Position numbers and translations under genes: made by a program. Source: Candidatus Poribacteria bacterium (GTDB lineage Bacteria; Poribacteria; WGA-4E; UBA9662). Taken from it: 64,000 bases of DNA. Below, piece by piece: positions 1 to 25,781 of this stretch. The stretch spans positions 56,286-120,285 of the forward strand of contig JAYZAL010000088.1 in assembly GCA_036339735.1 (NCBI GenBank). Direction: 5' to 3'. How positions within the stretch are numbered: the stretch's first letter is position 1; each line of letters begins with the position of its first letter. The notes under the pieces were generated by a model, which had not been told where the DNA came from, made no database searches, and saw only the letters and a list, made by a program, of their open reading frames with translations.

Positions 1-1531
1 TAGTCTTGTTCTTTTGAGCTTGTAAAATTTCATCAAGTCGTTTTTGATAATGTATATTATCAGGAGATTTTGATAATGCTTGTCGAATGGTGGCTTCAGC
101 CAGGTGCAACTTGTCTTGACGCAAGTAAACCAGAGCTAGAGTTGCTAATTCTGGTGATGATGGGTTGAGTTTGACTGCTTTTTGTGCAAATTTTTCAGCA
201 TTAACCAAATAAGTTCCAGTTTCAGCGTAGATTTGGGCAATATATAGATAAGGGCGAGAATCGTTTCTCCCACCTTTTATGGCTGTTTGAAAAGCCACTA
301 AAGCTTCATTGGTTTGTCCATTTTCGATACGCAATTGACCAAGCGTTATCATGACATCAGGCCCACAATCACCAAGCTTTACAATCTGTTCATAAACGGA
401 GAGTGCTAAATCAGAATTGCCTTCAGCCAAATGAACTTCGGCCAATCCATGATAAGCTAAAGTTAAACTAGGAGACAATCGAATAGCTTTTTGTAGTAAC
501 TGCTTAGCTTCTTCAAAACGTTGTTGTTTTGTGTAAATCCAACCCAATCTCAGATGTGTTTCCAAAGATTCTGGGCGTAATTGGATGAGACGATCAAAAG
601 CTGAAATAGCAGTCTCAAAATCTCCCATCTGCATATAAATACGACCTAATTGATCCCAAGCCTCACCTATTTCGGGTTGTTCTAATGTAATCATTCTATA
701 GTCGTTCAGGCTAGCTGTCAAATTTTGGTTACGATAATGTAGTTCGGCTATTTCTAGGCGAATTTGGACGTTAGTCGGCTCATCAACTAACATCATTTGT
801 AAATCATGGATTTGGTCAAAGTATTTTTTCAGCGTTTTAAATTGTTTCTGATGATGATTGGCTAACTCACGATTATCTATTTGCTGATAGACTTTTATTA
901 AACCAAAGTGTGGTCGATGATCAAAGGGGTCTAGATCGATCATTTTTTTGAAGTGCTCAATAGCTTTCTGCGTCCGATTTTGTATAAGGGCAATATGACC
1001 CAGTTCTTGATAAGCATCGGAGAAAGTAGAATTTTGTTGGATAGATTGAATGAAAGCGGAGCGAGCATCATCCAATTGTCTCCAAAAGAGATAGACTTTC
1101 CCTATATAGTAATGCGATTCAGCTAAATTAGGCAGAGTTTTTGTGGCTGATTTAGCCTGTTGAAACGCTAAGTCGAGCTGACCTAACTGAAGATAAATTT
1201 CAGCTAACATTACGTGTGTCTGATTAGAAATTAACTCAGTTGGACTAAGATCGAATATTGGGCTTAAAATCTCTGACGCCTTGTGGTAACGGCGCTGCCG
1301 ACGATAACAATCACCCAAATAATAGCGGATCAGAAAGGAAGACGGATTTTTTCTAAGAAGAGGGGACAAGACTCCGATTGCTAAAGGATATGACTCTTGC
1401 TCTATATAGCCAATTGCCAGCTCTAGCTGATGCTTATCGGATGTTGCTGCTGAAAAAAGGAGATTGGAGATTAAGCAGAGTCCAAAAGTCAGACTAAATA
1501 ACTTAGCCGGTGTAGAACCTATACGTTCCAT
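1..1531 (-). CDS. TPR repeat protein with N-terminal signal-like segment (partial; C-terminus lies beyond window start)
   Basis: Minus-strand ATG at 1531-1529 gives MERIGSTPAKLFSLTFGLCLISNLL... followed by repeated TPR-like 34-aa motifs (A/Y/L-rich helices) along the whole 1.5 kb. The ORF runs off the window edge, which is probably why it is absent from the ORF track. It overlaps the stop of the neighbouring gene by 13 nt. Confidence 0.6.
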   Translation of the reverse strand, partial: MERIGSTPAKLFSLTFGLCLISNLLFSAATSDKHQLELAIGYIEQESYPLAIGVLSPLLRKNPSSFLIRYYLGDCYRRQRRYHKASEILSPIFDLSPTELISNQTHVMLAEIYLQLGQLDLAFQQAKSATKTLPNLAESHYYIGKVYLFWRQLDDARSAFIQSIQQNSTFSDAYQELGHIALIQNRTQKAIEHFKKMIDLDPFDHRPHFGLIKVYQQIDNRELANHHQKQFKTLKKYFDQIHDLQMMLVDEPTNVQIRLEIAELHYRNQNLTASLNDYRMITLEQPEIGEAWDQLGRIYMQMGDFETAISAFDRLIQLRPESLETHLRLGWIYTKQQRFEEAKQLLQKAIRLSPSLTLAYHGLAEVHLAEGNSDLALSVYEQIVKLGDCGPDVMITLGQLRIENGQTNEALVAFQTAIKGGRNDSRPYLYIAQIYAETGTYLVNAEKFAQKAVKLNPSSPELATLALVYLRQDKLHLAEATIRQALSKSPDNIHYQKRLDEILQAQKNKT

Positions 1532-2403
1532 TTTTGACGAGCTTGGTGCATAGGGACAGTTTCGCCTTTTTGCCAAGCATAATGACCAATTGGTTCCGAT
1601 CCAACCCAGCGTTCGTCAACCGGTTCATTAGCTGGTTGATAACGTGTATCAGCCGTTAGACGGAAGCGATTAGTTGTATTATCTAATGAGGCATGCATAG
1701 TAAACATACCAAATATTAGAACATCACCAACTTGAAAATTAGTTGTCTGCCACTGTCCACCATATTTATCAATCAATTCGAAAGGGTCGTTTGAAAATGA
1801 ACCAGTAACATGATCTCGGTCCACGTCCATTTGTCCGTATGTTTCTTTGATTATATCAAAACGATGTGAACCCACCAAGATTGCCAGTGGACCTAGCTCT
1901 ATTGGAATATCACCTATGGGCGTCCAACAAGTCAAAACATTATCTGTTCCACGACCCATATAGACAATATCATAATGTGCTCCAGTGAACCCTTTTGGTG
2001 GAACAACCCTTAACCATTTATAATCATAAGTCAAAGCAGTTGTTCCGAAAAATTGGTCAAAAAAATTCATAATCTGTGGGGATTCGACTAAATCTAAAAA
2101 ATTATCATCTCTTGTCATCTCTTTATGACCACCGAAGAAACCACCCCGATGACTGGTTTTTGCCACACCATTCAATAAGGGGAAATCAGTATCAATTTGT
2201 CCTTGAATTGAAAGTTGATTTATCAGGTGCTGTCGAGCGGTCTCCACCAAATTGGCTGGTTGCAGTTTGCGAATCAGTAAATATCCATCTTCTTTGAATC
2301 TCTGATGCAAAGCACTCACTGAATCTAAGATGTCGTTTGATTCTCTTAACCAGCCTAGATATTTCCCACCTAACGTCATTTGGAATTGGTTCATGGTAAC
2401 CAT
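1519..2403 (-). CDS. phytanoyl-CoA dioxygenase (PhyH) family Fe(II)/2-oxoglutarate dioxygenase
   Basis: 294 aa. HxD facial-triad-like motif (GAHYDIVY) plus a distal His (FTMHASLDN) in a PhyH-like double-stranded beta-helix layout. Confidence 0.6.
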   Translation of the reverse strand: MVTMNQFQMTLGGKYLGWLRESNDILDSVSALHQRFKEDGYLLIRKLQPANLVETARQHLINQLSIQGQIDTDFPLLNGVAKTSHRGGFFGGHKEMTRDDNFLDLVESPQIMNFFDQFFGTTALTYDYKWLRVVPPKGFTGAHYDIVYMGRGTDNVLTCWTPIGDIPIELGPLAILVGSHRFDIIKETYGQMDVDRDHVTGSFSNDPFELIDKYGGQWQTTNFQVGDVLIFGMFTMHASLDNTTNRFRLTADTRYQPANEPVDERWVGSEPIGHYAWQKGETVPMHQARQKWNV

Positions 2404-3715: not shown

Positions 3716-6118
3716 CTATCCTAGAAGCGATTGTTCTAAGACCTGATCAATATGCTTAACAAAAACAAACTTAAGACCACGCTGTGCTTCTTTTGGAATC
3801 TCTGATAAATCTTTTCGATTCTTTTCTGGGGCAATAACTGTTTTGATACCAGCTTGTTTGGCCGCTAACACTTTCTCCTTGAGGCCACCAATCGGTAAGA
3901 CTCGGCCTCGTAACGAAATCTCTCCAGTCATCGCAACCTCATTGGAAACAACCTGATTGGTAGCTAGGGAAGCCAAAGCTGTTGCAATGGTTATACCCGC
4001 AGAAGGACCATCTTTAGGTGTAGCTCCAGCTGGTACATGCAAATGAAAATCGTTTTTTTTGAAAAAATCAGTGTCAATCAACAAGTCTTCAGCCTGTGAT
4101 TTGACATAACTCAGTGCGGCTTGCGCTGACTCTTGCATTACACTTCCAAGCTGACCCGTAACAGTCATTTTACCTTCTCCTTTCATTCGTGTACACTCTA
4201 CAAAGAGAACTTCACCTCCATATGGAGTTACAGATAGACCTGTAACTACACCAATATCACCTTCGCGTTCAGCTACTTCCGATTGAAATTTAATTGGACC
4301 TAAATACGTCTCGATTTTAGAAGCGGAAACATCAATCCGTCGTTTTCGTCCTTGAGCAAACTGGCGGGCTACTTTGCGACAGACAGTCCCCAATTCTCGC
4401 TCCAGGTTTCGTAACCCAGCTTCTCGAGTATAACTACTGATCACTTCTTCTATGGCAGGGTCTTCAAACTGAAGATTTTTGGCCGAAATCCCATTGGCGT
4501 CCAGTTGGCGCGGTACTAGATACTGTTTGGCTATCATCAGTTTTTCTTTTTGAGTATATCCAAGTAATTGCAGAATCTCCATCCGATCCTTTAAAGGCGG
4601 TGGAATAGTATCGAGCTGGTTAGCTGTAGCAATGAACATTACTTTAGAAAGATCAAATGGAACATCAAGGTAATTATCAGCAAAATTATGATTCTGTTCA
4701 GGATCCAATACTTCCAAGAGTGCAGATGCTGGATCTCCCCGAAAATCAGAACTCATTTTATCAAGTTCGTCCAGCATGAAAATCGGATTCTTTGATTCTG
4801 CTTGCCTTAGGCTTTTGATAATTCGACCCGGCATTGAACCAATATAAGTTCTTCGATGTCCACGGATTTCAGCTTCATCATGAACACCACCCAGAGATAT
4901 ACGAACGAACTCTCGTCCCATTGAACGAGCAATCGACCGACCTAAGGACGTCTTACCAACTCCTGGTGGGCCAACAAAACATAGAATTGGGCCTTTCATA
5001 TCTGACTTCAAAGACCGAACAGCTAGATATTCCAGAATTCGGTCTTTGACCTTAGTCAAATTGTAATGATCTTCGTCTAAAATCTGTTGAGCTCGGTCGA
5101 GGTCCAAGTTATCTTTTGTTTCGTGTTCCCAAGGTAAATTAACCATCCAGTCTAGATAGTTTCGACAAACAGTGGCTTCTGGAGAGAATGACTGCATCTG
5201 AGATAAACGTTTTAGCTCTCGCTCAGCTGATTTTAGCGCTTTTTCCGGCATTTCCATTTGCTGTAGTTTATCTCGATATTCTTCAATTTCAGCAGATAAA
5301 TCTTCGGTATCACCTAATTCTTTTTGAATGGCTCGTATTTGCTCTCGCAAGAAATATTCCTTCTGAGACTGATTGATTTCAGCTTCAGCGTCGGACTGGA
5401 TTTTACTCTCTAATTCAACTAAATTCAGTTCCTTGGTTAACATTTTAACCAAGTTTTCCAGTCTTTCCTCGACAGTAACATTTTCGAGCAGTTGCTGCTT
5501 ATCTTCTGTTTTTAAGCTTATGATAGAAGCAATGTAGTCAGCAAGCCGCCCAGGATGATCAATATTATCGGCAATAATGGCAAATTCTTCTTGATAACGA
5601 GAAGAAATAGTTACTATTTGGCTAAATAGATCATTTGCGCTTCTTACCAAGGCTTCAGACTCCATATCACCAAATTTTTCCGAAATCTCATCTTCTAACA
5701 GGGAGACTTCGGCCTTCATGAAGGGGGCTGTATGTAATACTTCATTAATTTCGACCCGAGCTTTGCCTTGAGCCAAAAAGAGAACACTATCGCCATCCTT
5801 TTTATAACGTACAATATGAACCAGTGTTCCGACAGGGCTTAGATCATCAGCAGTTAATTGTTTTGGGTCTTTTTCAATGCTTTGGCGAAACAAACAAAGA
5901 AACCTTTGTTCATTTACCATCGCATATTCAACTGCAGACGACACATTTTCACCTGACAACGCTACATGGTGAGGTGAAAATGGTGGGACTGGGGGCATGA
6001 AGGGGTAAACAACTAAATCTCCTAATACTGGAATAATAGGCAGCTCGTTGCTGATATCAAAGCGAGCTATACCTTCTGATTCTTCGTTTTCCAATGGATT
6101 TTGGTCACTCATCTTCAT
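3716..6118 (-). CDS. lon: ATP-dependent Lon protease (La)
   Basis: 800 aa. LON N-domain, Walker A GPPGVGKTS, and a C-terminal protease domain with PKDGPSAGIT (catalytic Ser) and the lysine region. Confidence 0.95.
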   Translation of the reverse strand: MKMSDQNPLENEESEGIARFDISNELPIIPVLGDLVVYPFMPPVPPFSPHHVALSGENVSSAVEYAMVNEQRFLCLFRQSIEKDPKQLTADDLSPVGTLVHIVRYKKDGDSVLFLAQGKARVEINEVLHTAPFMKAEVSLLEDEISEKFGDMESEALVRSANDLFSQIVTISSRYQEEFAIIADNIDHPGRLADYIASIISLKTEDKQQLLENVTVEERLENLVKMLTKELNLVELESKIQSDAEAEINQSQKEYFLREQIRAIQKELGDTEDLSAEIEEYRDKLQQMEMPEKALKSAERELKRLSQMQSFSPEATVCRNYLDWMVNLPWEHETKDNLDLDRAQQILDEDHYNLTKVKDRILEYLAVRSLKSDMKGPILCFVGPPGVGKTSLGRSIARSMGREFVRISLGGVHDEAEIRGHRRTYIGSMPGRIIKSLRQAESKNPIFMLDELDKMSSDFRGDPASALLEVLDPEQNHNFADNYLDVPFDLSKVMFIATANQLDTIPPPLKDRMEILQLLGYTQKEKLMIAKQYLVPRQLDANGISAKNLQFEDPAIEEVISSYTREAGLRNLERELGTVCRKVARQFAQGRKRRIDVSASKIETYLGPIKFQSEVAEREGDIGVVTGLSVTPYGGEVLFVECTRMKGEGKMTVTGQLGSVMQESAQAALSYVKSQAEDLLIDTDFFKKNDFHLHVPAGATPKDGPSAGITIATALASLATNQVVSNEVAMTGEISLRGRVLPIGGLKEKVLAAKQAGIKTVIAPEKNRKDLSEIPKEAQRGLKFVFVKHIDQVLEQSLLG

Positions 6119-6695
6119 CCTCCTGACGGTTCACTTGAATACCAATCGGTTGTCGTCCAGTTATCATATTTGCTTCAGCCTCGCTATCTAGATTTTGATT
6201 AGTCTTAACTTCAACTACAATCTCCTTAGATTTTCGTTCTTTTTTGGGTATTTTAATTTCCAGAAATCCATTGTCATAACTAGCGGTTGGTGTAACTTCT
6301 TCTACATGAACATTAGGTAAAACTACTCTCCGTTCAAAATGGCCATAGCTTAATCCAGCTTGGTGATAGTGTTGTTTCTTTAGCTCAGTTTTATCTTGAC
6401 GAAAACCACGTATGACCAAGTTATTTTCCTCTAGGCGAATTTTGACGTCATTCTCAGGATCAATTCCAGCGACTTCTAGCTTAACGATAAAACTATCTAC
6501 GGTCTCGTAAATATCCATTGGTGGTCGCCACAAGTCGGTCTCGACATTGGAAGAGGAGAAAGCATCAAATAGTCGCTCAGCCTCACCTTGCATTTCAATT
6601 TTCATTTCAAAAAATTGGTCAATCAGTTCTTTGGAAAACTTCATGCTAATTTTACTCCTGTCGCTGTTGATTTCTCGATTAATGTCTATTTTCAT
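6105..6695 (-). CDS. Hsp20/alpha-crystallin family small heat-shock protein
   Basis: Alpha-crystallin domain motifs (PMDIYET, VKLEVAGI, GFLEIKIPK) and an acidic C-terminal tail. Overlaps the lon start by 14 nt, suggesting translational coupling. The true start may be the internal Met at 6644 (MKFSKEL...). Confidence 0.8.
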   Translation of the reverse strand: MKIDINREINSDRSKISMKFSKELIDQFFEMKIEMQGEAERLFDAFSSSNVETDLWRPPMDIYETVDSFIVKLEVAGIDPENDVKIRLEENNLVIRGFRQDKTELKKQHYHQAGLSYGHFERRVVLPNVHVEEVTPTASYDNGFLEIKIPKKERKSKEIVVEVKTNQNLDSEAEANMITGRQPIGIQVNRQEDEDE

Positions 6696-6737
6696 GTAGT
6701 TAAGTTACTTTTATTGGTTCATATTGTATCGACATCA

Positions 6738-8690
6738 TTAAGGCCAAAATTGATAGAGTGGGGTATTAGTAATGATACTAGCAATGCTCCAAATGCTCCC
6801 GAGGATGTAATCGCCTAGTGCTAAGCCTAGAAAAAACGGAATGGCACGGCGGTAAGACTGTAGACCGCCTTGTTTTAATATCACAGCTTTTAAAAACCAA
6901 GCAACAAATAAACAACACCATAAATTTGCCATCCCCCAGCTATTTGCCATAGCGTAACCAAGAGGGTGGAGAGGCCACCACAAAAACTTAGTTCGAATCA
7001 ACATCATCAAGGTCGTTATTATTACGCCTACTCCCATAAATGCTAAGCCAGGAATATCAACCTCGCGAGGAAATGTTAACCAGCCTTCTAGTTGTCGATA
7101 AACACCTCTTCCGAACCCGAGTGCCCAAGTTTCATAATAACCTGATTCTGCCCCATGGCGATAGTAGCTGTCAAGTAATAGCCAGAATACTACTATTGCA
7201 CCAACTAAAGTAGCCATCAAAATGGAAATCACTATTTGCTTTGAAGGAATCGACCGAGTTTGTGAAATCTTAAATGCTTCCAACATTTGCGGCATTGGAT
7301 GGGCTCGGTAGGCTCGATTAAAAAACATATATAAGGAAAATCCAATGAGGCTACCTGTTCCTATCCGCTGAGTACCGAAAGCCGTCACTAAAATACTATG
7401 TGGATCTATCCTGTGCAAGTCATGTACCAAGAAACCGAGTTCAGCTCTCACACGTGCTATCATAATAGCCAACAAAAAGTAAATCGTAAAAAATAGTAAA
7501 ATTACCCAAGGAGACATACCAATCTGGTAGGAAAAAACACTTAAAAAAGAACAGCCAAAGACAATACCTAGAAAGGCAAATCGGTAGTAAGTGAATTCTC
7601 TAACATCTTCGATTATAGGTTTTAAACCATACTTTATTCCTAAAAGAGACAATAGGTAACGCATGAGAGATTTAAAATGTCCTCTACCGGCCCATAAAGC
7701 AAAGCATAATAAGCCTATGTAAGCACCAAAAGCCTGCTCATTATCGTAAGGGAAACGAGGTATACCACGAAACCCAACTATTTTGCCTACCATCAATTCG
7801 ATCTTGAAAAGAGCATAAAAAAACCAACAAGAAAAAAGTAAATCAAGCGGTATTAAGAAGGCGATACCAATAGCAAATGGGTAAAAGGCAATCTTTACTC
7901 CACCCATCGCATTCCAAGGTCGGGCAGTGAAATAGTGTTGAATAGACTGACGTTTGACCGGTAAATATGGGACTTCAGGGTAAATCGAATTCATCAAATT
8001 CAGAATGCTAATTCCTGCTGCTAAACCGAAACCGAACCAAACTATCCTTCGATGAAAAAATCTGGAATCTGGATTTACCATTTCGAGCGGTAACTGAATG
8101 ATCGGATAAGTTAACCGCTCTCGTTCAGTCCATTGTAATCTCAACAAAATGTTTAGGCAGAGCATGACAATCATTAACACAAGGATAAAAGCAATCCACC
8201 AAACCGCGGGTTTCAGCCATGCATAAATATGATCTTGGGTATAGAGAGTAGAACCTCCTTCGTAATAATGGCGAAGTGCTTTTTCGTCACTGACAGTAAG
8301 CCATTCTGGCAGTTGACGAAGGAATATCTCTCGCCACTCATTTTCTGGTGTGGCGAAACGAAATGGGTGTCCCAAAATCGTGATTAAAATCTCCATCATA
8401 TCGTGGGAACAGAGAGATGAAACCACACATAGCATCACGTAAATAGTTAAAACTTCGGCTTGTGTTAGAACTAGTAAGGAGGAAAGTTGATTCAAAAACA
8501 GACCAATCAAAAGCAACCAGAAAATTATAAAAATAACATTTGATAATGGGTGAATAAGAGTTGGGTGAGTGTATCGAACGACCTCCAACTGTATCAGCCA
8601 AAATACATTAATTGGAATTAAACAGAGAACAATTAGAAAGGATTTGACTGTTAGACCATTCTCGGAAGGTGGATTCACTGATGAATCCAT
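6738..8690 (-). CDS. uncharacterised polytopic membrane protein, paralog 1 of 3 (about 14 predicted TM segments)
   Basis: 650 aa, highly hydrophobic. Shares the conserved motifs FATPENEW...LP.WLTV, RPWNAMG, HPMP.MLE.FKI, WWP.HP.GY and a C-terminal LGDY..GS.WS with the ORFs at 39367..41241 and 50934..52868. Confidence 0.5.
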   Translation of the reverse strand: MDSSVNPPSENGLTVKSFLIVLCLIPINVFWLIQLEVVRYTHPTLIHPLSNVIFIIFWLLLIGLFLNQLSSLLVLTQAEVLTIYVMLCVVSSLCSHDMMEILITILGHPFRFATPENEWREIFLRQLPEWLTVSDEKALRHYYEGGSTLYTQDHIYAWLKPAVWWIAFILVLMIVMLCLNILLRLQWTERERLTYPIIQLPLEMVNPDSRFFHRRIVWFGFGLAAGISILNLMNSIYPEVPYLPVKRQSIQHYFTARPWNAMGGVKIAFYPFAIGIAFLIPLDLLFSCWFFYALFKIELMVGKIVGFRGIPRFPYDNEQAFGAYIGLLCFALWAGRGHFKSLMRYLLSLLGIKYGLKPIIEDVREFTYYRFAFLGIVFGCSFLSVFSYQIGMSPWVILLFFTIYFLLAIMIARVRAELGFLVHDLHRIDPHSILVTAFGTQRIGTGSLIGFSLYMFFNRAYRAHPMPQMLEAFKISQTRSIPSKQIVISILMATLVGAIVVFWLLLDSYYRHGAESGYYETWALGFGRGVYRQLEGWLTFPREVDIPGLAFMGVGVIITTLMMLIRTKFLWWPLHPLGYAMANSWGMANLWCCLFVAWFLKAVILKQGGLQSYRRAIPFFLGLALGDYILGSIWSIASIITNTPLYQFWP

Positions 8691-9811
8691 CCCCGTCCAG
8701 ATTCGATCTGGACGTCTGTGTTTAAACCTTCACACAATTTCTGATATTTTTGGAGTGTAGATGTAGCCTGTTGTCCTTCTGAAATCTGAGGTTGGTATTT
8801 CACCTTTGGGTTTCCGACCCAGACAGGAACTAACTCTATATGCTTAAATTGTCGTTTTTGAAAAACAACTTTTGGTATAACAATTTGGCTGTGTTGCTTG
8901 TCGTATGTTTCGTATATGAGGTCAGCCAAGCTATAAATTATCGGCTTGCCTTCAAATATTTGGATTCCTTGTAGAGTATGTAGGCGTTGAGATAGAACCA
9001 AATCAGCACCTGCAGAGATTAGTGATTGCGCAAAAAACTGCTGCCTTTGGCTGACGATCTCACTTTTTGATTCTTTTCCCCAATGCATCATCACCACCAA
9101 CAAGTCAGCTTGATTCGCCATTTCTTCAGTTCGTTTTATCATGTGAGTATAGAGTGCGCGTGCCACCTTAATCTGTCCATCTTGGCTGAAAGCACCCGCG
9201 TGATAGTAAGTAACAAAGGCAACTTGGACTACTTGACCATTTTTTTGTAGGTTGAACCTGGCAGGTTGTTGTGCTGCATAATCGGAAAGCCCAACACCAA
9301 TTGTCTTAACTCCCATGCGAGTTAAGTGCTGGATAGTATCTTCAACGGCTACTGGACCAAAATCATGCAGGTTGGGGGTTGACAGCGATATCAGGTCCCA
9401 TCCAGCTTGGGCGATAGACGTTGATAGACCAGGTATCGCACGAAAAGACTGTTTTCCTTTCACTTTAGAAAGAGATTGATACTGTGGCTCACCATTTTCA
9501 GAGATACTGGTATTAAGTGTAGCTAACGCAATATCAGCTCCTTGAACCTCGCCCTTAATTAGTTTAAATAGAACATCTAAACCTTGTCGGCGTAGGATAG
9601 GAGTTAATCGACTACCAACTGTAATATCACCACCAACGAGTATTGAAACTTGATCGTTATTCGGATCAGCTTCAGCTAATCCAGTCAGATTGAACCCAAC
9701 AATAAGAAAAGTTATAGGAAGAATAAATCGACGGAGGCTGACCAATAATGAGGGGATTCGACGACATAGAGACATCGTCGCTTCCAGATTCTGGTGAAAA
9801 ATTCTTTTCAT
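8675..9811 (-). CDS. CapA/PGA_cap family metallophosphatase-like protein (poly-gamma-glutamate capsule synthesis-like)
   Basis: 378 aa. Signal peptide from the alternative start at 9775 (MSLCRRIPSLLVSL...), then VGGDITVG, NTSISENG and MMHWGKES (HWGxE) motifs typical of the CapA family. Confidence 0.65.
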   Translation of the reverse strand: MKRIFHQNLEATMSLCRRIPSLLVSLRRFILPITFLIVGFNLTGLAEADPNNDQVSILVGGDITVGSRLTPILRRQGLDVLFKLIKGEVQGADIALATLNTSISENGEPQYQSLSKVKGKQSFRAIPGLSTSIAQAGWDLISLSTPNLHDFGPVAVEDTIQHLTRMGVKTIGVGLSDYAAQQPARFNLQKNGQVVQVAFVTYYHAGAFSQDGQIKVARALYTHMIKRTEEMANQADLLVVMMHWGKESKSEIVSQRQQFFAQSLISAGADLVLSQRLHTLQGIQIFEGKPIIYSLADLIYETYDKQHSQIVIPKVVFQKRQFKHIELVPVWVGNPKVKYQPQISEGQQATSTLQKYQKLCEGLNTDVQIESGRGWIHQ

Positions 9812-9816
9812 CCAGT

Positions 9817-10890
9817 CTAGGGATAGTTATATAGATTACCGGTTTCTGATGAAGATTCCGTAGAGCTAGGATCGGTCGTACTTGTCTGATCTAGCTCTGG
9901 TAACTGGTTAGCCGCAAATTCATCCAAAATGCAAGAGACAGTTTCTTCTGAGTACGCTTGTGAGTCGATGCTAGTTTGGTTTGCTTCCCAGGCCATCCGA
10001 GCAGCAGCTTCGAAATACTCAGCATGACGATAGCTATCGAGGATATCAACACCACGGGAGAAAGTACCGTGACCAGTCCAATACACGACATGACGAAATT
10101 GATCAGAATTCTTATCTGGAAGATCCTTCCCTTGGAATAGTCGTAGACTCTGAAACGACAATTCAGGTATACCTGGAGCTTTCTCCATCACCAATCCAAT
10201 TCCACCAACGCTATCGTATATTATCGGTGTCTCTGGTTCATAACCCTTCAAGAAATCATAAAACTTCTCAGGAACACCATGTTCTGATCGAGAAATCAAA
10301 TTTAGAAACTTAGGTTGTAGGTGTACCAAAGCATTAAATTCGTAATCCCCGAGCTGATCAAAAACTAACATATAGTGAAAAAACTCACTGGTGGGTTTAG
10401 GTAGTTTGTTCCCTGTTCTTTCGAGTTCTGAAATGGTTGGAGTACCATACCTCATCCGGTAGTGAACACCATCTGATTCCATTTCTAATATTGTTACGTT
10501 CAGGGAAGGATGTTCTAATCCAACCAAGTCTAATCTGCATCCAGACTTAGTCAACAAGACATGACGACCAACTAGGTTATTGACAGTAATCGCAGCAGGT
10601 AATCTACCACGTGGAGATTCTTCGATAGGTAGCAGGTAATCCGACCCGACTATTTCTGTCATTAGAGCCCCCATGTTACCAGCTGACCCCCATAAATATC
10701 CATTACGATGGGCATGGCTGCCAGCCCAGCCCATCTGCCCGATCAATGTTCCGATCTCGCTATCAACTCCAATGGGAGCCAAAGTCGGTTGGTATCCTCG
10801 CTCTAGCCACTTTCGATAGCGATAGCTTTGGGCAACAGGAGGGAACTTCTCTTGTGTCAAATAAGGATTGGTTAAACCCGCTGTACTCAT
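9817..10890 (-). CDS. class II aldolase/adducin-family domain protein (divergent; N- and C-terminal extensions)
   Basis: 357 aa. Its motifs align to FucA-type class II aldolases. The phosphate-binding segment WGSAGNMG matches GTAGNVS. SEFFHYMLVFDQLGDYEFNALVHLQP matches SEWRFHMAAYQSRPDANAVVHNHAV, with the second zinc His replaced by Gln. HVVYWTGHGTF matches LLQHHGLI. It ends in an S/T/E-rich low-complexity tail. Confidence 0.55.
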   Translation of the reverse strand: MSTAGLTNPYLTQEKFPPVAQSYRYRKWLERGYQPTLAPIGVDSEIGTLIGQMGWAGSHAHRNGYLWGSAGNMGALMTEIVGSDYLLPIEESPRGRLPAAITVNNLVGRHVLLTKSGCRLDLVGLEHPSLNVTILEMESDGVHYRMRYGTPTISELERTGNKLPKPTSEFFHYMLVFDQLGDYEFNALVHLQPKFLNLISRSEHGVPEKFYDFLKGYEPETPIIYDSVGGIGLVMEKAPGIPELSFQSLRLFQGKDLPDKNSDQFRHVVYWTGHGTFSRGVDILDSYRHAEYFEAAARMAWEANQTSIDSQAYSEETVSCILDEFAANQLPELDQTSTTDPSSTESSSETGNLYNYP

Positions 10891-10903
10891 CCTACTTTTT
10901 TCT

Positions 10904-11191
10904 CTACTTCTTATAAATGATTTGGCCCTCTATTTCGACCATATCCACGATTGCCATAACTACCGAATCTATCGGTTTCCCACTCGTTGAATCGGTATAT
11001 CGAGCGGAACTACCCGCTGCAGTCAAAACCATTTCGCCAATACCAGCTCCCACAGCATCCATTGCAACTGTGTATTGACGTACTAAATGACCGTCTATAT
11101 CAACTGACTGAACAATCATCAATTTGCTACCGATTAGTTTCTCATCTTTCCGAGTGGCAACTAGCGTGCCAACCACCTTTCCCAACGTCAT
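10904..11191 (-). CDS. EutN/CcmL/PduN-family bacterial microcompartment vertex (BMC-P pentamer) protein
   Basis: 95 aa. Aligns along its full length with E. coli EutN. KLMIVQSVDIDG...VAMDAVGAGIGEMVLTAAGSSAR...IDSVVMAIVDMVEIEGQIIYKK matches KLLMVEMIDPQG...VAIDNIGAGTGEWVLLVSGSSAR...VDLCVIGIVDEV..GGQVIF.K. Confidence 0.8.
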   Translation of the reverse strand: MTLGKVVGTLVATRKDEKLIGSKLMIVQSVDIDGHLVRQYTVAMDAVGAGIGEMVLTAAGSSARYTDSTSGKPIDSVVMAIVDMVEIEGQIIYKK

Positions 11192-11923
11192 CTAAATGCT
11201 CTTTTTTCATTGAATAGGCTGTTATGGTAAACTGAAATACAGATCAAAGTCAAGCTTACAATTTGGGTATTCTTCCTCTACATCTTGTTAATCAACATAA
11301 TTTGATCAGTGGATCATAAGAAATCAGAGAAGTAAGAAATTTCTCATCTTATGAAGTAAATATTCCACTGTACATCTCGGGTCAAAAACAATCGAGAATC
11401 GCTTCACACAACGTTACTTACAAAGTAAATGACGTAAAAATTTTATACTGAAGATATTCAGTTTTTCTTCGCTGACACACAGATTACCTGTATGATTGAT
11501 ACAATTTCGTTATGAATTTTTTATCTAACAAAACCAGTATAGCTCTAGCGTCTCTCGTATAATTTAATATCATTGCGTGAGTTTTCAAAAGAGATTAAAA
11601 ATCTCGGAGCCAATAGCTCAAATACATTTTGTCAGCTTTTATATTCTGAGAAGAATACGTTCAGGTGTGTAATAAGATAGACAAATTAGGTATTGACAAC
11701 TATGAATTACACGGTTCATCGTACTATGCGCAGTTGATCAAATTTTTAGACCTATTTTTCTTAAAGTAGACTGACTTATTGGAATGATTTGAAAACGAAC
11801 ACACCAAAAGAGAATAATAATACACAACTAGATAATACTATTTTATTCGTCCGTTGAACCTTGCTAATCCTGTTCGATTTCATATGATTCGATTATATAG
11901 AGTTGTCAAAAACTGATTCGGTT

Positions 11924-20254: not shown

Positions 20255-20812
20255 TTAGGTGTTTTCCCAAGGTGATGGCAAGGCCGCGGTTAACGTAAAA
20301 GTTGATTTTGCTAGTTCATCTAATCTTTCGTTGATCTTCTCTGACTGTACAAACATTTGTGGCGTCCGGTCATTACCAAAATCATCCCCAGTAGCGTAAA
20401 CAAATCGAGGATTAATTAAGCAACGAAAATCAAGCATCAGACTATTAGCAATACTCATTACCGACATATAACTAGAATGACCACCTGCAGCACAGGCGAA
20501 CCCAACAACTTTTTGACTCCACCTGCGGCCAGTTAATTCGATCATATTCTTGGCAGCAGAGTTAATGTCGTAGTTATAAATTGGTACAGTTAAGATAATT
20601 GCCCGAGCTTGTTCGATACTTTCTTGCAGAAACTGCACATGTGGATTTTCAGATGCACCGCTTGTGCCGCATAGTGGGGCTGGGTGTTTCCGTAGATCAA
20701 CCAAAGGTGACTCTGCTCCCAAATGGGATAGTTTTTCACTTAATTCTTTAGCTAGCACATAAGACCGACTTTGCGGATGAAGCGAACAACTAATAATAGT
20801 AATATTCATCAC
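20255..20812 (-). CDS. NAD(P)H-dependent FMN reductase (flavodoxin-like fold)
   Basis: 185 aa. N-terminal ITIISCSLHPQSRS flavodoxin-like phosphate-binding loop and PIYNYDI motif. Confidence 0.7.
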   Translation of the reverse strand: MMNITIISCSLHPQSRSYVLAKELSEKLSHLGAESPLVDLRKHPAPLCGTSGASENPHVQFLQESIEQARAIILTVPIYNYDINSAAKNMIELTGRRWSQKVVGFACAAGGHSSYMSVMSIANSLMLDFRCLINPRFVYATGDDFGNDRTPQMFVQSEKINERLDELAKSTFTLTAALPSPWENT

Positions 20813-20835
20813 TCTATGATACTCTTAATTTTTTT

Positions 20836-22671
20836 CTAATTGAATATTTGGTTAAGTTCTGGATGATTCTCCACTATTTGATCAACTCTTTGGTTAACTG
20901 ATTTTGATTCTATAAGTGGAGGTGCATTGTGGGGCTTGAAACGAGCATCAATCACTAATGGCCCTTTCGTTCCCCAGTGCTTATCTATTATGAATGAACT
21001 GGCGCCATAAATATCGGTAGCAGGATTAGAACGTGTGAATGTCAGCCACAGAAAATTTGACCAATCATCTACACAAAATTCTATATCATCTACAAGTACG
21101 ACTAATGGAAGACTAGACCATCGACGTGGTTCAATAGCAGAACATAGACTCTCAACTTGACCTTTTGCTATTTCATAATTTTCAGTAAATCTTGGTGCTC
21201 CCACAGCACATATGCCAGGTATAACGATCTTTGAATGATTAAAAGGTGAAGCTAACTGTTGTGGGATTTCAGTTGCTAAGTCCCTAATTTTTGAGCCGGC
21301 CGCAGCAATCACGACCTTAGAGCCGAGATTTAGCTCAGGGGTAGAGTAATCTAAGGTATCTATAGTCGTTTGGGTTTGAAAGTGAAGATCTCGACTCAAA
21401 TCAACTCGCTCTAATAAATGAACAAAAAAAGATTGGGTACATTGCGTTGACAGGTCAGAATTATCTTCTTGGGCTACGATAAACAAATACTTAGCTAGGC
21501 TACATTGATTGAATCCTAAAATTGCGTTAGCTTGGGTCAATAGTTCCATTGGTAATCGTTGTTGATAAGGCACATACCGCTCACTACCAATGGCGAGTAG
21601 CAATGGATGTACCCCTGCTTCATCAACAGCGTTTAGTTCTTTTACACCGGGTATTTCAACTGGTACCATAGGTTTGGTAATTTCGTGTATTAAATGACCA
21701 AAAGTGCTGTCTTCTTGTGGTGGACGACCAACGACGGTAAACGGCCAAATAGCATTTGGCCGATGGAAAACCTTTTCGACCTTCATATAAGGAAATTCGT
21801 GAGTTAGGCTATAATAACCCAGATGATCTCCAAAGGGGCCTTCTGGTTTGGTTTTTTGGGGATCAATCGTTCCAACCAGACAGAAGTCAGCGTCAGCTAA
21901 AATCGGGTACTCGTTCCAACGAGTATAACGTACATTACGATCAGCCATCATACCAGCAAAGACAATTTCAGATAAGCCTTCTGGTAAGGGCATTACGGCA
22001 GCCAAAGTGTGGGCAGGGGGGCCACCAACAAAAATACATACTTTCAAAGGTTGCTTTTTCTTGATGGCTTTGGCGTGATGTATACCAATACCTCTATGAA
22101 TCTGGTAGTGAAGCCCAACTTCTTCATTGTATCGGTAGTCATTACCCGACAGCTGTACCCGATACATACCTAGATTTGTATTAAATAAACCTCCCTTTTC
22201 TGGATCTTCGGTCAAAACCTGAGGCAAGGTGATGAAAGCACCGCCATCCATTGGCCAACTAATAATTTGTGGGAGTTGGGATACCGTTGTCTGGCTGGCC
22301 AATACTGGGGCTAAACGAGTCGGTATCGGTAAGGATCGTAAACCTGCGGTAGATAACGGAAACAGATTCTTCAGATCGGAAAAAACACTCGCCGGTCTGG
22401 CTTTGAATCGGACCGCAGTTTTTACTGGAGAAAGGCTCTTTCTAAAAATGTATCGGCTGCGTTCGATCGTACCAAACAAGTTGGATGTAGCACGGAACGG
22501 TGTACCAATCACTTTCTCAAAAAAGAGCGCAGGTCCACCAACTTTGTAAACTCGACGGGTGAGTTCAGCCATCTCTAGATTGGGGGAGATTGGTTCTGTT
22601 ACCCGAATCAATTGGTTTGTTTTATCTAAATCTCGGATGCAGTCTTCGGTACATCGATAGGCTTTGGTCAC
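20836..22671 (-). CDS. UbiD-family (prFMN-dependent) decarboxylase with C-terminal extension
   Basis: 611 aa. The N-terminal region matches 3-octaprenyl-4-hydroxybenzoate carboxy-lyase-family proteins (GGPALFFEKV, WPMDGGAFITLP, FGDHLGYYS). Confidence 0.75.
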   Translation of the reverse strand: MTKAYRCTEDCIRDLDKTNQLIRVTEPISPNLEMAELTRRVYKVGGPALFFEKVIGTPFRATSNLFGTIERSRYIFRKSLSPVKTAVRFKARPASVFSDLKNLFPLSTAGLRSLPIPTRLAPVLASQTTVSQLPQIISWPMDGGAFITLPQVLTEDPEKGGLFNTNLGMYRVQLSGNDYRYNEEVGLHYQIHRGIGIHHAKAIKKKQPLKVCIFVGGPPAHTLAAVMPLPEGLSEIVFAGMMADRNVRYTRWNEYPILADADFCLVGTIDPQKTKPEGPFGDHLGYYSLTHEFPYMKVEKVFHRPNAIWPFTVVGRPPQEDSTFGHLIHEITKPMVPVEIPGVKELNAVDEAGVHPLLLAIGSERYVPYQQRLPMELLTQANAILGFNQCSLAKYLFIVAQEDNSDLSTQCTQSFFVHLLERVDLSRDLHFQTQTTIDTLDYSTPELNLGSKVVIAAAGSKIRDLATEIPQQLASPFNHSKIVIPGICAVGAPRFTENYEIAKGQVESLCSAIEPRRWSSLPLVVLVDDIEFCVDDWSNFLWLTFTRSNPATDIYGASSFIIDKHWGTKGPLVIDARFKPHNAPPLIESKSVNQRVDQIVENHPELNQIFN

Positions 22672-22695
22672 TCTTCTGGGTCGTTCAACTTGTTG

Positions 22696-22974
22696 CTAAC
22701 AACCCCCTCCCATAGCCGGCAAAAAATGTACTTCTGAGTTAGGTCCGATAGTTGATCGCATACCTCTGTCGATCAACACACCATCAACATAGACACCAAT
22801 ATAAGGGCTAATACGTTCAATACCATCATCGTGGTGGCATAGCCGATCTTTCACACCAGGGAACTCCGCTTCCATATTGTCCAATAATTCTCGTATCGTT
22901 GTTCCCGTAATTTCAACTTGACTTTTTTCGTTAGTCAAATCACGCATCAAGGAAGGAATAGAAACAATGGCCAA
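22696..22974 (-). CDS. MoaD/ThiS-family ubiquitin-like sulfur-carrier protein
   Basis: 92 aa beta-grasp-like sequence ending ...FLPAMGGGC. The glycine-rich C-terminus is typical of the family, with one extra Cys after the Gly run. Confidence 0.55.
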   Translation of the reverse strand: MAIVSIPSLMRDLTNEKSQVEITGTTIRELLDNMEAEFPGVKDRLCHHDDGIERISPYIGVYVDGVLIDRGMRSTIGPNSEVHFLPAMGGGC

Positions 22975-23058
22975 AACTTAACCCATAGTTGAAGTGTTCG
23001 GATAATTTTCCCAATCTATAAACCAAAGGTAATCAATAATCGCAATAGAGAGGGGTCT

Positions 23059-25299: not shown

Positions 25300-25781
25300 T
25301 ATAGGTCGTCCTCTCCGTTATCTGCAGCATCCAAGACAGCACGCACAATCTTGTCATATCCGGTGCAACGACAGAGGTTTCCAGCCAACCAGAACCGAAC
25401 TTCCTTCTCAGTTGGATTGGGGTTACTCTCAAGTAAAGCTTTTGCATTCATAATGAACCCTGGTGTACAAATACCGCATTGCAAGGCGGCATGCTCCAAG
25501 AATTTTTGCTGCAGTGGGTGTAACCCTTCAGGTGAAGCAACACCTTCGATAGTTTCGATTTTATTTCCCTCGGCCTCTACACCTAACATACAACATGAGT
25601 TAACAGGTCGACCTTCGACCATTATGGTGCACGCACCACAGTTCCCATTGTTACATCCTTCTTTAGCACCTGTTAAATCAAGATCGTCTCGAAGAACTTC
25701 GAGCATACTCTGTCGGGGCTCGCATAAAAACTCAACACTGTCACCGTTAATTTGCGTCTGTACATGAACTTTTCTTGACAT
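25299..25781 (-). CDS. (2Fe-2S)-binding small subunit of molybdenum hydroxylase (CoxS-like)
   Basis: 160 aa. Two [2Fe-2S] cysteine clusters: CNNGNCGAC (plant-ferredoxin type) and CGICTPG...CRC. Confidence 0.9.
   Translation of the reverse strand: MSRKVHVQTQINGDSVEFLCEPRQSMLEVLRDDLDLTGAKEGCNNGNCGACTIMVEGRPVNSCCMLGVEAEGNKIETIEGVASPEGLHPLQQKFLEHAALQCGICTPGFIMNAKALLESNPNPTEKEVRFWLAGNLCRCTGYDKIVRAVLDAADNGEDDL

What the first reader, a model, noticed from the sequence alone, without database searches (positions are those of the whole stretch)
9817..10890. Aldolase-like protein has a Gln in place of the second zinc-ligand His, plus long terminal extensions
Aligning to FucA, the phosphate loop (GSAGNMG), Glu (SEFFH), first His (VHLQP) and third His (GHG) are present, but HNH has become HLQ. 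The protein also carries a roughly 60-aa N-terminal extension. Near the C-terminus a predicted amphipathic helix (TVSCILDEFAANQL) is followed by an S/T/E-rich tail, which could act as an encapsulation or targeting segment. The protein may be a catalytically altered aldolase or a non-catalytic adducin-like scaffold.
Basis: partly seen in the sequence, partly recalled or inferred. Interest (0 to 1): 0.55.

Follow-up and report, generated by a model that had tools for sequence, protein, structure and literature searches.

The report
Poribacterial aldolase beside microcompartment vertex gene
This gene encodes a probably active sugar-phosphate aldolase found only in Poribacteria, whose "missing" zinc histidine is a common natural variant, and whose conserved tail and neighbouring shell-protein gene make it a candidate key enzyme for a protein organelle of unknown function.

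Summary
The ORF (9817..10890, minus strand, 357 aa) is real and is a class II aldolase of the rhamnulose-1-phosphate aldolase (RhaD) type. The Gln-for-His change is confirmed: H190-L-Q192 aligns with RhaD His141/His143, E169 with Glu117 and H274 with His212.

The change does not indicate a dead or altered enzyme. H-x-Q is the rule in a very large RhaD-like clade (>4,500 clusters). Three of three members examined sit in rhamnose operons beside RhaA and a sugar kinase. All other catalytic and phosphate-binding residues are invariant in the family.

What is unusual:
- The family is restricted to Poribacteria.
- It has an ordered ~44-aa N-terminal extension.
- It has a disordered acidic tail (21-55 aa) ending in [VLI][YF]NY(P)-COOH in 95/95 loci.
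- In the free-living marine clade, a microcompartment vertex gene (BMC-P) lies 13 nt upstream, and this pair persists in three different gene neighbourhoods.

Poribacterial microcompartments (type FRAG2) have no assigned signature enzyme, and this aldolase is a plausible candidate. That link is inferred, not shown.

The parts
9817..10890 (-). Complete ORF, 357 aa plus stop: Poribacteria-specific RhaD-type class II aldolase
10759..10890 (-). N-terminal extension, residues 1-44 (NPYLT...W..RGY...). It is conserved in the family and absent from all RhaD-like outgroups.
   Evidence: Conserved in the alignment. hhalign matches start at residue 45. Ordered in the deep-MSA model, with block pLDDT 94-96 for residues 11-40. 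Translation checked.
9904..10758 (-). Aldolase core, residues 45-329.
   Evidence: hhalign covers 45-326/327. NCBIfam RhaD profile covers 50-328. Helix 315-329 in the model. MAFFT alignment to RhaD residues 252-266.
10669..10689 (-). Phosphate-binding loop GSAGNMG, residues 68-74. N72 aligns with the invariant Asn of the RhaD G-G-N loop.
   Evidence: G71 and N72 are invariant across the family and the H-x-Q clade.
10384..10386 (-). E169, equivalent to the catalytic Glu117 of RhaD (PTSE motif)
   Evidence: The role of Glu117 is taken from PMC3870299.
10315..10323 (-). Metal motif H190-L191-Q192, aligning with RhaD His141-x-His143. Gln replaces the second His ligand.
   Evidence: Invariant.
10069..10071 (-). 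H274, equivalent to the third metal ligand His212 of RhaD (W-x-G-H-G)
9841..9903 (-). Disordered acidic, Ser/Thr/Pro-rich linker, residues 330-350. Its length and sequence vary within the family.
   Evidence: Block pLDDT falls from 60 to 43 across residues 331-357. Tail length after CILxEF is 21-55 aa. Linker composition (tail minus its first 4 and last 6 residues): D 15%, S 14%, E 14%, P 12%.
9820..9840 (-). C-terminal motif G-N-L-Y-N-Y-P-COOH. Family consensus is [DE]N[VL][YF]NY(P).
   Evidence: 95/95 family loci carry [VLI][YF]NY at the C-terminus, and 92/95 add a final Pro. Pro, Asn, Leu/Val and stop codons vary synonymously. No other ORF in 1.95 Mb of fetched DNA ends this way. Translation checked.
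10904..11191 (-). BMC-P (EutN/CcmL) microcompartment vertex protein, 95 aa. Its stop codon lies 13 nt upstream of the aldolase start.
   Evidence: Pfam PF03319, E = 2.5e-27, full-length match. The pair is kept in all 14 pelagic-clade loci. It is 62% identical to a BMC-P in a complete AldDH + aldolase microcompartment locus.
3716..9811 (-). Co-directional, tightly packed downstream genes: PGA_cap (8675..9811), DUF6785/DUF6784 (6738..8690), HSP20 (6105..6695) and Lon (3716..6118). This order is conserved in most Poribacteria, but a functional link to the aldolase is uncertain.
   Evidence: The block is absent downstream of the aldolase in L014 and L018.

Best explanation
The gene encodes a catalytically competent, metal-dependent class II aldolase of the RhaD type. 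It most likely cleaves a 6-deoxy-ketose-1-phosphate (L-rhamnulose-1-P or L-fuculose-1-P-like) into dihydroxyacetone phosphate and L-lactaldehyde. Its 2-His/1-Gln metal site is an inherited lineage variant, not a defect.

The family is confined to Poribacteria. It adds an ordered ~44-aa N-terminal extension. It also adds a disordered acidic tail ending in an invariant short motif, [VLI][YF]NY(P)-COOH. I read this motif as a tethered docking motif.

In the free-living marine clade, which includes this window, the gene is co-transcribed with a microcompartment vertex protein. I infer that the enzyme is the so-far unassigned aldehyde-producing signature enzyme of the scattered FRAG2 microcompartment of Poribacteria, and that the tail recruits it to the shell or cargo core.

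Shown here: fold, residue equivalences, conservation, distribution and gene order. Inferred: catalytic activity and substrate (about 0.8 that it is an active aldolase), encapsulation, and the role of the tail (about 0.4).
For: Fold and family:
- Pfam hit above cut-off.
- Best NCBIfam and PDB matches are RhaD and 1pvt.
- Model with pLDDT 89 matches RhaD at TM 0.79-0.81 and 1pvt at TM 0.87.

Active site:
- N72, S116-G117, T167-S168-E169, H190, Q192, E220 and H274 align with the RhaD phosphate loop, Glu117, His141, His143, Glu171 and His212.
- They are invariant or near-invariant.

Gln is a normal variant:
- 11 of 38 nearest outgroup representatives have H-x-Q.
- 120 of 120 listed members of a clade of >4,500 clusters have it.
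- Three of three contexts examined lie next to RhaA and an FGGY kinase, together with RhaM and rhamnosidases.

Tail:
- The motif is present in 95/95 loci, with synonymous codon variation and a variable linker.
- The tail is disordered in the model.

Microcompartment link:
- BMC-P lies 13 nt upstream.
- The pair is retained across three different flanking contexts in a clade with 96/100 NJ bootstrap support.
- The closest non-poribacterial BMC-P examined lies in an AldDH + class II aldolase microcompartment locus.
- Literature: class II aldolases are signature enzymes of PVM, GRM5, ACI and HO microcompartments and usually carry a C-terminal extension after a variable linker (PMC4594438; PMC8217296).
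- HO type I has BMC-P + aldolase satellite loci.
- Poribacteria carry FRAG2 microcompartments, for which the catalogue describes only shell proteins. FRAG1-7 are listed among types with no obvious aldehyde-generating signature enzyme, and no FRAG aldolase model is listed.
Against: - No enzyme assay exists for this family or for any H-x-Q RhaD-like protein.
- NCBIfam's RhaD equivalog score is far below cut-off (44 against 170).
- No rhaA, rhaB, fucI or fucK, and no BMC-H, AldDH or PduL, was found in the 64-kb window.
- In the sponge-associated majority of Poribacteria the BMC-P gene is not adjacent. The orthologous BMC-P sits elsewhere, next to a histidine kinase and a sigma-54 regulator.
- Linkage therefore reflects one evolutionary event.
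- The terminal motif is 6-7 residues, non-helical, and usually ends in Pro. It does not meet the ~15-20-aa amphipathic-helix definition of an encapsulation peptide.
- No other protein with the motif was found in the DNA available.
- In one rhamnose operon an H-x-Q protein coexists with a RhaEW-like aldolase fusion. The exact role of the H-x-Q clade is therefore not proven.
Confidence: 0.5

Rival explanations
1. It is an ordinary cytosolic RhaD-like aldolase of deoxy-sugar catabolism with no link to microcompartments. Adjacency to BMC-P in one clade is an accident of genome compaction. The tail motif serves the enzyme itself, for example as a mobile Tyr-containing lid reaching an active site of the tetramer (as the C-terminal Tyr209 tail does in FucA), or as an oligomerisation or regulatory element.
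For: - BMC-P is not adjacent in most Poribacteria.
- There is no BMC-H in 64 kb.
- The motif is not a classical encapsulation peptide.
- H-x-Q relatives are plain operon enzymes without tails.
- The C-terminal Tyr209 tail of FucA was targeted by mutagenesis (PDB entries 1dzv and 1e48 carry Y209F; listed). Its role as an active-site lid is from my own knowledge.
Against: - A 21-55-aa disordered linker of variable length is unlike a precise lid. In FucA the tail follows the last helix directly.
- The BMC-P/aldolase pair survives three rearrangements of its flanks.
- Class II aldolases with C-terminal extensions are recurrent microcompartment enzymes.
Confidence: 0.3
2. The C-terminal motif is a degradation or regulatory tag read by an AAA+ protease, most obviously the Lon encoded a few genes downstream. 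Aldolase levels would then be controlled by proteolysis.
For: - HSP20 and Lon lie downstream in the same orientation in most Poribacteria.
- Lon recognises short, flexible, aromatic C-terminal degrons. Sul20 ends in ...SNLYH, with Tyr19 and His20 contacting the Lon N-domain.
- Five C-terminal residues are enough for the LarA degron.
- The tail here is flexible and ends in N-L-Y-N-Y-P.
Against: - The resemblance to Sul20 is only three residues (N-L-Y).
- In sponge lineages, gaps of ~400 and ~720 bp separate the aldolase from HSP20-Lon, which suggests separate transcription units.
- In L014 and L018 the aldolase keeps the motif but is no longer near Lon.
- Lon is a housekeeping gene, so conserved order within one phylum is weak evidence.
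Confidence: 0.12
3. It is a non-catalytic, adducin-like scaffold that has lost metal-dependent catalysis because of the His-to-Gln change.
For: One of the three canonical His ligands is missing. The score against curated RhaD models is far below cut-off.
Against: - The catalytic Glu, the two remaining His, the Gln itself, Glu220 and all phosphate-binding residues are invariant over ~40% sequence divergence.
- The same H-x-Q site characterises thousands of proteins embedded in rhamnose operons.
Confidence: 0.05

Closest known systems
[quoted passage not shown]
   Same: Same fold (TM 0.79-0.87). Same phosphate loop, PTSE catalytic Glu, first and third His ligands, Glu171 equivalent and C-terminal helix.
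   Different: - Second His ligand is Gln.
- ~18-20% sequence identity.
- Far below the NCBIfam equivalog cut-off.
- An extra ordered 44-aa N-terminus, two internal insertions, and a disordered tail with a terminal motif.
- Not in a rha operon.
Uncharacterised 'H-A-Q-P' clade of RhaD-like proteins (Chloroflexota/Anaerolineae, Bifidobacteriaceae and others), auto-annotated as rhamnulose-1-phosphate aldolase or class II aldolase/adducin
   Same: Same H-x-Q-P metal motif. It is the best profile match to the family (hhalign E = 9e-26), with 25 invariant columns shared, including G71, N72, R119, T167, E169, H190, Q192, P193, E220, W271, H274 and G275.
   Different: These proteins are 267-292 aa with no N-terminal extension and no tail. 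They sit beside RhaA, RhaB-type kinase, RhaM and rhamnosidases. They are only ~25% identical to the poribacterial family.
Microcompartment signature class II aldolases (PvmN of PVM, and those of GRM5, ACI and HO), for example the 251-aa aldolase in locus L102
   Same: Pfam PF00596 enzyme encoded next to BMC-P genes, with a C-terminal extension after a poorly conserved linker. The L102 BMC-P is 62% identical to the window's BMC-P.
   Different: - The L102 aldolase is a short FucA-type protein with canonical H-A-H.
- It ends in a classical amphipathic helix (DEALVDRIVERVRARLES).
- It is only 24% identical to the window protein over 182 aa.
- The window protein is RhaD-type with H-x-Q, and its terminal element is a 6-7-residue non-helical motif.
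- The catalogue's aldolase models do not include a FRAG2 type.
FRAG2 bacterial microcompartment (Sutter et al. 2021), the scattered shell-gene set typical of Poribacteria
   Same: Same phylum. BMC-P genes are dispersed as satellites. The sponge-clade orthologue of this BMC-P corresponds to Kamke's 'group C' locus.
   Different: The published description of FRAG2 covers shell proteins only (a BMC-P triplet plus two BMC-H) and names no signature enzyme. The aldolase link proposed here is not in that description.
Sul20 / LarA C-terminal Lon degrons
   Same: Short, flexible, aromatic C-terminal element. The N-L-Y tripeptide is shared with Sul20.
   Different: No terminal His. Ends in Tyr-Pro or Tyr. 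Resemblance is minimal and untested.

Membership tests
Class II aldolase/adducin superfamily (Pfam PF00596) | Significant match to the family profile above the curated cut-off | tested here: met
   33.2 bits against a cut-off of 22.2, E = 6e-8. All 90+ homologues carry the precomputed PF00596 assignment.
RhaD (rhamnulose-1-phosphate aldolase) equivalog | Score above the NCBIfam equivalog cut-off (NF002963, TIGR02624) | tested here: not met
   44.2 bits against 170, and 23.6 against 400.95. It is RhaD-like in fold, but not a member of the curated equivalog.
RhaD (rhamnulose-1-phosphate aldolase) equivalog | Three-histidine metal site (His141, His143, His212) | tested here: not met
   H190, Q192 and H274: the second ligand is Gln. 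The ligand list is from PMC3870299.
RhaD (rhamnulose-1-phosphate aldolase) equivalog | Catalytic Glu117 and DHAP phosphate-binding residues | tested here: met
   E169, N72, S116/G117 and T167/S168 are aligned and invariant or near-invariant.
RhaD (rhamnulose-1-phosphate aldolase) equivalog | RhaD-type tertiary fold | tested here: met
   Model pLDDT 89. Foldseek TM (target-normalised) 0.79-0.81 at rmsd 3.4-3.5 A to RhaD, and 0.87 at 2.6 A to 1pvt. Metal-site geometry could not be inspected because coordinates are not exposed.
RhaD (rhamnulose-1-phosphate aldolase) equivalog | Genomic association with rhaA / rhaB (rhamnose operon) | tested here: not met
   No RhaA or FGGY kinase among the ORFs of the 64-kb window scanned with Pfam, nor among the genes called in related poribacterial loci. 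The rest of the genome is not testable here.
RhaD (rhamnulose-1-phosphate aldolase) equivalog | Aldol cleavage of L-rhamnulose-1-phosphate | not testable with these tools
   Requires an enzyme assay.
Microcompartment cargo carrying a classical encapsulation peptide | Gene encoded next to shell-protein genes | tested here: inconclusive
   Met for BMC-P in the pelagic clade (14 related loci plus the window). Not met in the sponge-associated clade. No BMC-H in the window.
Microcompartment cargo carrying a classical encapsulation peptide | Terminal extension separated from the enzyme domain by a poorly conserved, hydrophilic linker | tested here: met
   Tail of 21-55 aa after CILxEF. Its linker part is D/S/E/P/T-rich and variable. 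This matches the linker description in PMC4594438.
Microcompartment cargo carrying a classical encapsulation peptide | The terminal element is a ~15-20-residue amphipathic alpha-helix | tested here: not met
   The conserved element is 6-7 residues, [DE]N[VL][YF]NY(P). It is predicted as coil with pLDDT below 50. The only amphipathic helix (315-329) is RhaD's own core helix.
Microcompartment cargo carrying a classical encapsulation peptide | Physical encapsulation in, or binding to, the shell | not testable with these tools
   Needs pull-down or encapsulation assays, or multimer modelling.
Adducin-like non-catalytic Aldolase_II proteins | Loss of catalytic and metal-binding residues | tested here: not met
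   Only one ligand differs, and it is itself invariant. All other catalytic residues are conserved.
Lon C-terminal degron | Exposed, flexible, aromatic or hydrophobic C-terminus recognised by Lon | tested here: inconclusive
   A flexible aromatic C-terminus is present. Recognition by Lon is not testable here. Gene linkage to Lon is partial.

The most novel reading that the evidence does not exclude
The invariant [VLI][YF]NY(P)-COOH motif on a disordered acidic tether is a new, non-helical type of microcompartment targeting signal. The aldolase would then be the missing signature enzyme of the FRAG2 microcompartment. That would make this scattered-gene organelle of Poribacteria a fucose/rhamnose-type, lactaldehyde-handling metabolosome, one built around a RhaD-type enzyme with a 2-His/1-Gln metal site.
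Probability: 0.3. Interest if true: 0.65.

Novelty: new variant of a known kind. Interest (0 to 1): 0.45.

Why it matters
The FRAG microcompartments are catalogued as organelles of unknown function, because their shell genes are scattered and no aldehyde-producing signature enzyme is known. Poribacteria are the main carriers of FRAG2 and are abundant sponge symbionts and ocean plankton.

A pan-poribacterial aldolase that is operon-linked to a vertex protein in the planktonic clade gives a concrete hypothesis that is cheap to test. The hypothesis is that FRAG2 is a deoxy-sugar/lactaldehyde metabolosome, and it comes with a defined peptide to test as a targeting signal.

Separately, a very large clade of RhaD-type aldolases uses His-x-Gln instead of His-x-His. 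This appears not to be discussed in the literature I could search. It bears on metal preference and on annotation rules that treat the three His as defining.

Tried and rejected
- A first AlphaFold model from the 37-sequence family alignment was poor (pLDDT 64, residues 193-275 below 50). I replaced it with a model from an 80-sequence alignment that adds the H-x-Q clade (pLDDT 89).
- The hmmsearch alignment to E. coli RhaD alone put Q192/K194 on the two His. I rejected it because three other alignments with bridging sequences agree on H190/Q192.
- My first tally of the C-terminal motif was circular, because the ORFs had been selected by the motif itself. I redid it without that filter. This showed that three loci end in ...NLFNY without Pro.
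- I searched the window for BMC-H with PduA and CcmK2 queries and found none.
- I looked for EutN remnants next to the aldolase in sponge lineages and found none.
- I looked for other ORFs ending in the motif in 1.95 Mb of fetched DNA and found none.
- A sigma-54 promoter search upstream of BMC-P found nothing above chance.
- Sigma-70 promoter and terminator scans were at background level.
- Rfam and tRNA scans of the window gave no hits.
- The afdb50 fold library was unavailable.
- Literature searches for Poribacteria plus rhamnulose or aldolase returned nothing relevant.
- I considered a metagenome-wide DNA pattern scan for the motif. I did not run it, because I estimated hundreds of chance matches plus swamping by the family itself.
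- Metal-site geometry could not be inspected because model coordinates are not exposed.
Full report
**Observation**

The ORF at 9817..10890 on the minus strand is real and encodes 357 aa.

The protein matches Pfam Aldolase_II above the curated cut-off (33.2 against 22.2 bits, E = 6e-8). Its best sequence matches among solved structures are T. maritima 1pvt and E. coli rhamnulose-1-phosphate aldolase, RhaD. Its best NCBIfam model is RhaD, over residues 50-328, but at 44 bits against a cut-off of 170. It is therefore RhaD-like rather than FucA-like, and it is not a curated RhaD equivalog.

**Register of the metal ligands**

- phmmer to 1pvt puts H190-L-Q192 on H-T-H.
- An hmmsearch of the family profile against E. 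coli RhaD alone shifted the alignment by two residues, putting Q192/K194 on His141/His143.
- A search of 1.8 billion representative proteins gave 38 nearest RhaD-like outgroups of 229-292 aa.
- A 49-sequence MAFFT alignment including them and E. coli RhaD aligns the segment without gaps. V-H-L-Q-P-K-F-L-N-L-I-S lies on x-H-x-[HQ]-P-x-x-L-x-x-L-[ST].
- Profile-profile alignments to an H-x-Q subgroup (probability 99.7%, E = 9e-26) and to an H-x-H subgroup (99.5%, E = 4e-23) give the same register.

The equivalences are therefore:
- H190 = His141
- Q192 = His143
- H274 = His212
- E169 = Glu117
- E220 = Glu171
- N72 = the phosphate-loop Asn

The identity of the RhaD ligands and of Glu117 is taken from PMC3870299.

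**What the Gln means**

The Gln does not single this protein out.
- Eleven of the 38 outgroup representatives also have H-x-Q.
- A profile of such sequences retrieved more than 4,500 clusters. These come mostly from Chloroflexota, with some Bifidobacteriaceae, and are auto-annotated as rhamnulose-1-phosphate aldolase or class II aldolase/adducin.
- All 120 listed members carry H-x-Q-P (the single regex exception is a mis-hit, since P0232 has LVHAQP).

I examined four genomic contexts.
- P0286 sits in DeoR / ABC transporter / RhaM / FGGY kinase / aldolase / RhaA.
- P0328 sits in LutABC / FGGY kinase / aldolase / RhaA, next to a GH106 gene. It is the only class II aldolase in that locus.
- P0288 sits in GH78 rhamnosidase / aldolase / RhaA / a RhaEW-like fusion / RhaM / FGGY kinase.
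- P0264 follows an FGGY kinase.

By context these are rhamnose-pathway enzymes. None has been assayed, and the coexistence with a RhaEW-like fusion in one operon leaves their exact step unproven.

Within the poribacterial family, the following are invariant or nearly so over 37 sequences down to 58% identity: G71-N72, S116-G117, T167-S168-E169, H190, Q192, P193, E220 and W271-x-x-H274-G275. Most stay invariant when 43 H-x-Q clade members at ~25% identity are added. That pattern is what an active site under selection looks like. It argues against an adducin-like scaffold.

**Structure**

With the 80-sequence alignment the model reached pLDDT 89 and pTM 0.87.
- It matches E. coli RhaD at TM 0.79-0.81 and rmsd 3.4-3.5 A.
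- It matches 1pvt at TM 0.87 and rmsd 2.6 A.
- Residues 11-44 are confidently ordered (pLDDT 94-96), with a helix at 23-30. The N-terminal extension is therefore about 44 aa rather than about 60, is part of the folded body, and is conserved in sequence (NPYLT, W28, R-G-Y).
It is not an appended element.
- Residues 330-357 are predicted disordered, with pLDDT falling from 60 to 43.

Model coordinates are not exposed, so I could not inspect metal-site geometry.

**The tail**

Across the window and 94 related loci, chosen without reference to the C-terminus, every protein ends in [VLI][YF]-N-Y.
- 92 of 95 add a final Pro.
- Three loci from one subclade end in ...ENLFNY.
- The residue before the motif is usually Asn, preceded by Asp or Glu.
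- Among the 91 Pro-terminated genes tallied, all four Pro codons, both Asn codons, ten different Leu/Val/Ile codons and all three stop codons are used. Conservation therefore acts on the protein, not on the DNA.
- The connecting segment varies from 21 to 55 aa (measured from CILxEF) and is rich in Asp, Ser, Glu, Pro and Thr.

This is the anatomy of a short linear docking motif on a flexible tether. My first tally selected ORFs by the motif and was circular for the last three residues. One search is the valid count. No other ORF in the 1.95 Mb of DNA fetched ends this way, but that DNA is mostly the neighbourhood of this one gene.

**Distribution and neighbourhood**

The family appears restricted to Poribacteria.
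- All named homologues are from Candidatus Poribacteria.
- A scan of one genome per species found 151 encoding loci, and the best 80 are all Poribacteria or unnamed MAGs.
- In the 50%-identity library the full-length family collapses to essentially one cluster. The next relatives are at about 60 bits.

The window matches Tara Oceans and other pelagic contigs. Its closest named genome is Poribacteria MAG SAT10.

Immediately upstream lies a 95-aa BMC-P (EutN/CcmL) gene at 10904..11191, with 13 nt between its stop and the aldolase start. There is no BMC-H anywhere in the 64 kb.

The BMC-P/aldolase pair occurs in all 14 related loci of the pelagic clade. These aldolases form one clade (96/100 NJ bootstrap) that is sister to the sponge-associated clade. 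Within the pelagic clade the flanks differ:
- M20 peptidase upstream and PGA_cap downstream in the window.
- MacB/FtsX upstream in L019.
- MFS upstream and unrelated genes downstream in L014 and L018.

So the pair, not the wider block, is the conserved unit.

In sponge-associated Poribacteria the aldolase instead follows a divergent fumarase gene. It is followed by a coiled-coil hypothetical, PGA_cap, sometimes DUF6785, then HSP20 and Lon. In those lineages the orthologous BMC-P (67-69% identical) sits alone upstream of a PilS-like kinase and a sigma-54 regulator. That arrangement is Kamke's "group C".

**What is known about poribacterial microcompartments**

- Shell genes in Poribacteria are scattered and resemble no described locus (PMC3909097).
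- They were classed as satellite-like (PMC4207490).
- The BMC-H/PduL region is highly transcribed (PMC5087111).
[quoted passage not shown] It lists FRAG1-7 among types with no obvious signature enzyme. Its aldolase models cover only GRM, GRM5, PVM, ACI and HO (PMC8217296 and supplements).
- The same sources show that class II aldolases are the signature enzymes of PVM, GRM5 and ACI microcompartments. They usually carry a C-terminal encapsulation peptide after a 23-81-aa unconserved linker.
- HO type I has satellite loci made of BMC-P genes plus an aldolase.

One relative of the window's BMC-P (62% identical) lies in a compact locus: BMC-H x2, BMC-P, AldDH, BMC-T, BMC-P x2 and aldolase. That aldolase is a short FucA-type protein with H-A-H and a textbook amphipathic C-terminal helix. 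It is only 24% identical to the window protein.

**Interpretation**

I conclude, with high confidence, that this is an active RhaD-type aldolase whose Gln ligand is a lineage trait.

I further propose, at about 0.4, that it is the aldehyde-generating signature enzyme of the FRAG2 microcompartment and that its tail is the tether. Four points support this:
- Operon linkage to BMC-P that survives rearrangement.
- The strong precedent of class II aldolases as microcompartment enzymes with C-terminal extensions.
- The pan-poribacterial distribution of both the aldolase family and the shell genes.
- The lack of any other candidate signature enzyme for FRAG2.

Three points count against it:
- Linkage is confined to one clade, so it reflects a single evolutionary event.
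- No other microcompartment gene lies nearby.
- The terminal motif fails the definition of an encapsulation peptide.

The rivals are a purely cytosolic enzyme whose tail acts on the enzyme itself (0.3), a protease tag, with Lon as the obvious reader (0.12), and a non-catalytic scaffold (0.05).

**Verdict**

The suspicion of a targeting tail in a microcompartment context is reasonable in a revised form.

This is a new variant of a known kind: a RhaD-type aldolase family with unusual appendages and a microcompartment link. I rate it of moderate interest, mainly because it offers a testable function for FRAG2.

Noticed in passing
window 6738..8690 (-), 39367..41241 (+), 50934..52868 (-): Three paralogous ~625-650-aa proteins of the uncharacterised DUF6785 + DUF6784 architecture lie within 64 kb. 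One is in the gene block directly downstream of the aldolase/PGA_cap pair, an arrangement also seen in other Poribacteria.
   Followed up: partly
L098/L099 8001-8825; L104 6001-6822; L105 6001-6822: A clade of more than 4,500 clusters of RhaD-like proteins carries His-x-Gln instead of His-x-His at the metal site and sits in rhamnose operons. In L104 it coexists with a RhaEW-like aldolase-dehydrogenase fusion. In L098 it coexists with a second 203-aa Aldolase_II and an aldehyde:ferredoxin oxidoreductase. Most score below NCBIfam's RhaD cut-off.
   Followed up: partly
L102 9355-13742: A compact microcompartment locus on a 4.7-Mb circular contig from a metagenome sample (ENA ERZ25072999): BMC-H x2, BMC-P, AldDH, tandem-domain BMC, BMC-P x2, and a FucA-type aldolase with a classical amphipathic C-terminal helix. 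Its first BMC-P is 62% identical to the window's. The organism was not identified.
   Followed up: partly
L095 10001-13429; L096 and L097 10001-13518: In sponge-associated Poribacteria the orthologous BMC-P gene stands alone, directly upstream of a PilS-like histidine kinase, a sigma-54-dependent response regulator and a 5-formyl-THF cyclo-ligase. This suggests regulated expression of a single vertex protein.
   Followed up: no
L001 11441-12073; L004 11112-11786; L005 12469-12939: An acidic, probably coiled-coil hypothetical protein of 156-224 aa lies between the aldolase and PGA_cap in the sponge-associated clade only. It has no homologue in the window.
   Followed up: partly
L019, L024, L038 (aldolase 10001-11047): One pelagic subclade ends the aldolase in ...QENLFNY, without the otherwise universal terminal Pro. 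In L019 the downstream PGA_cap protein is fused to a VWA domain (551 aa).
   Followed up: partly
window 11192..11923: A 730-bp AT-rich intergenic region lies upstream of the BMC-P gene. It has no Rfam hit, no sigma-54 promoter match and no ORF above 35 aa. A weak sigma-70-like site (TTGACT-18-TACCAT) lies at 11253..11224.
   Followed up: partly
window 1519..2403 (-), 30503..31309 (-): Two PhyH (phytanoyl-CoA dioxygenase) family genes lie in the window. This agrees with the reported expansion of PhyH proteins in Poribacteria.
   Followed up: no
window 20255..26653 (-): This stretch holds UbiD-like decarboxylase and flavin reductase genes, followed by a three-subunit xanthine-dehydrogenase/CO-dehydrogenase-type molybdoenzyme (MoCoBD, 2Fe-2S, FAD subunits) and a ThiS-like gene.
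   Followed up: no
window 42712..43872 (-), 44197..46203 (+), 62866..63987 (-): Three sizeable ORFs (386, 668 and 373 aa) have no Pfam match at E <= 1e-5.
   Followed up: no
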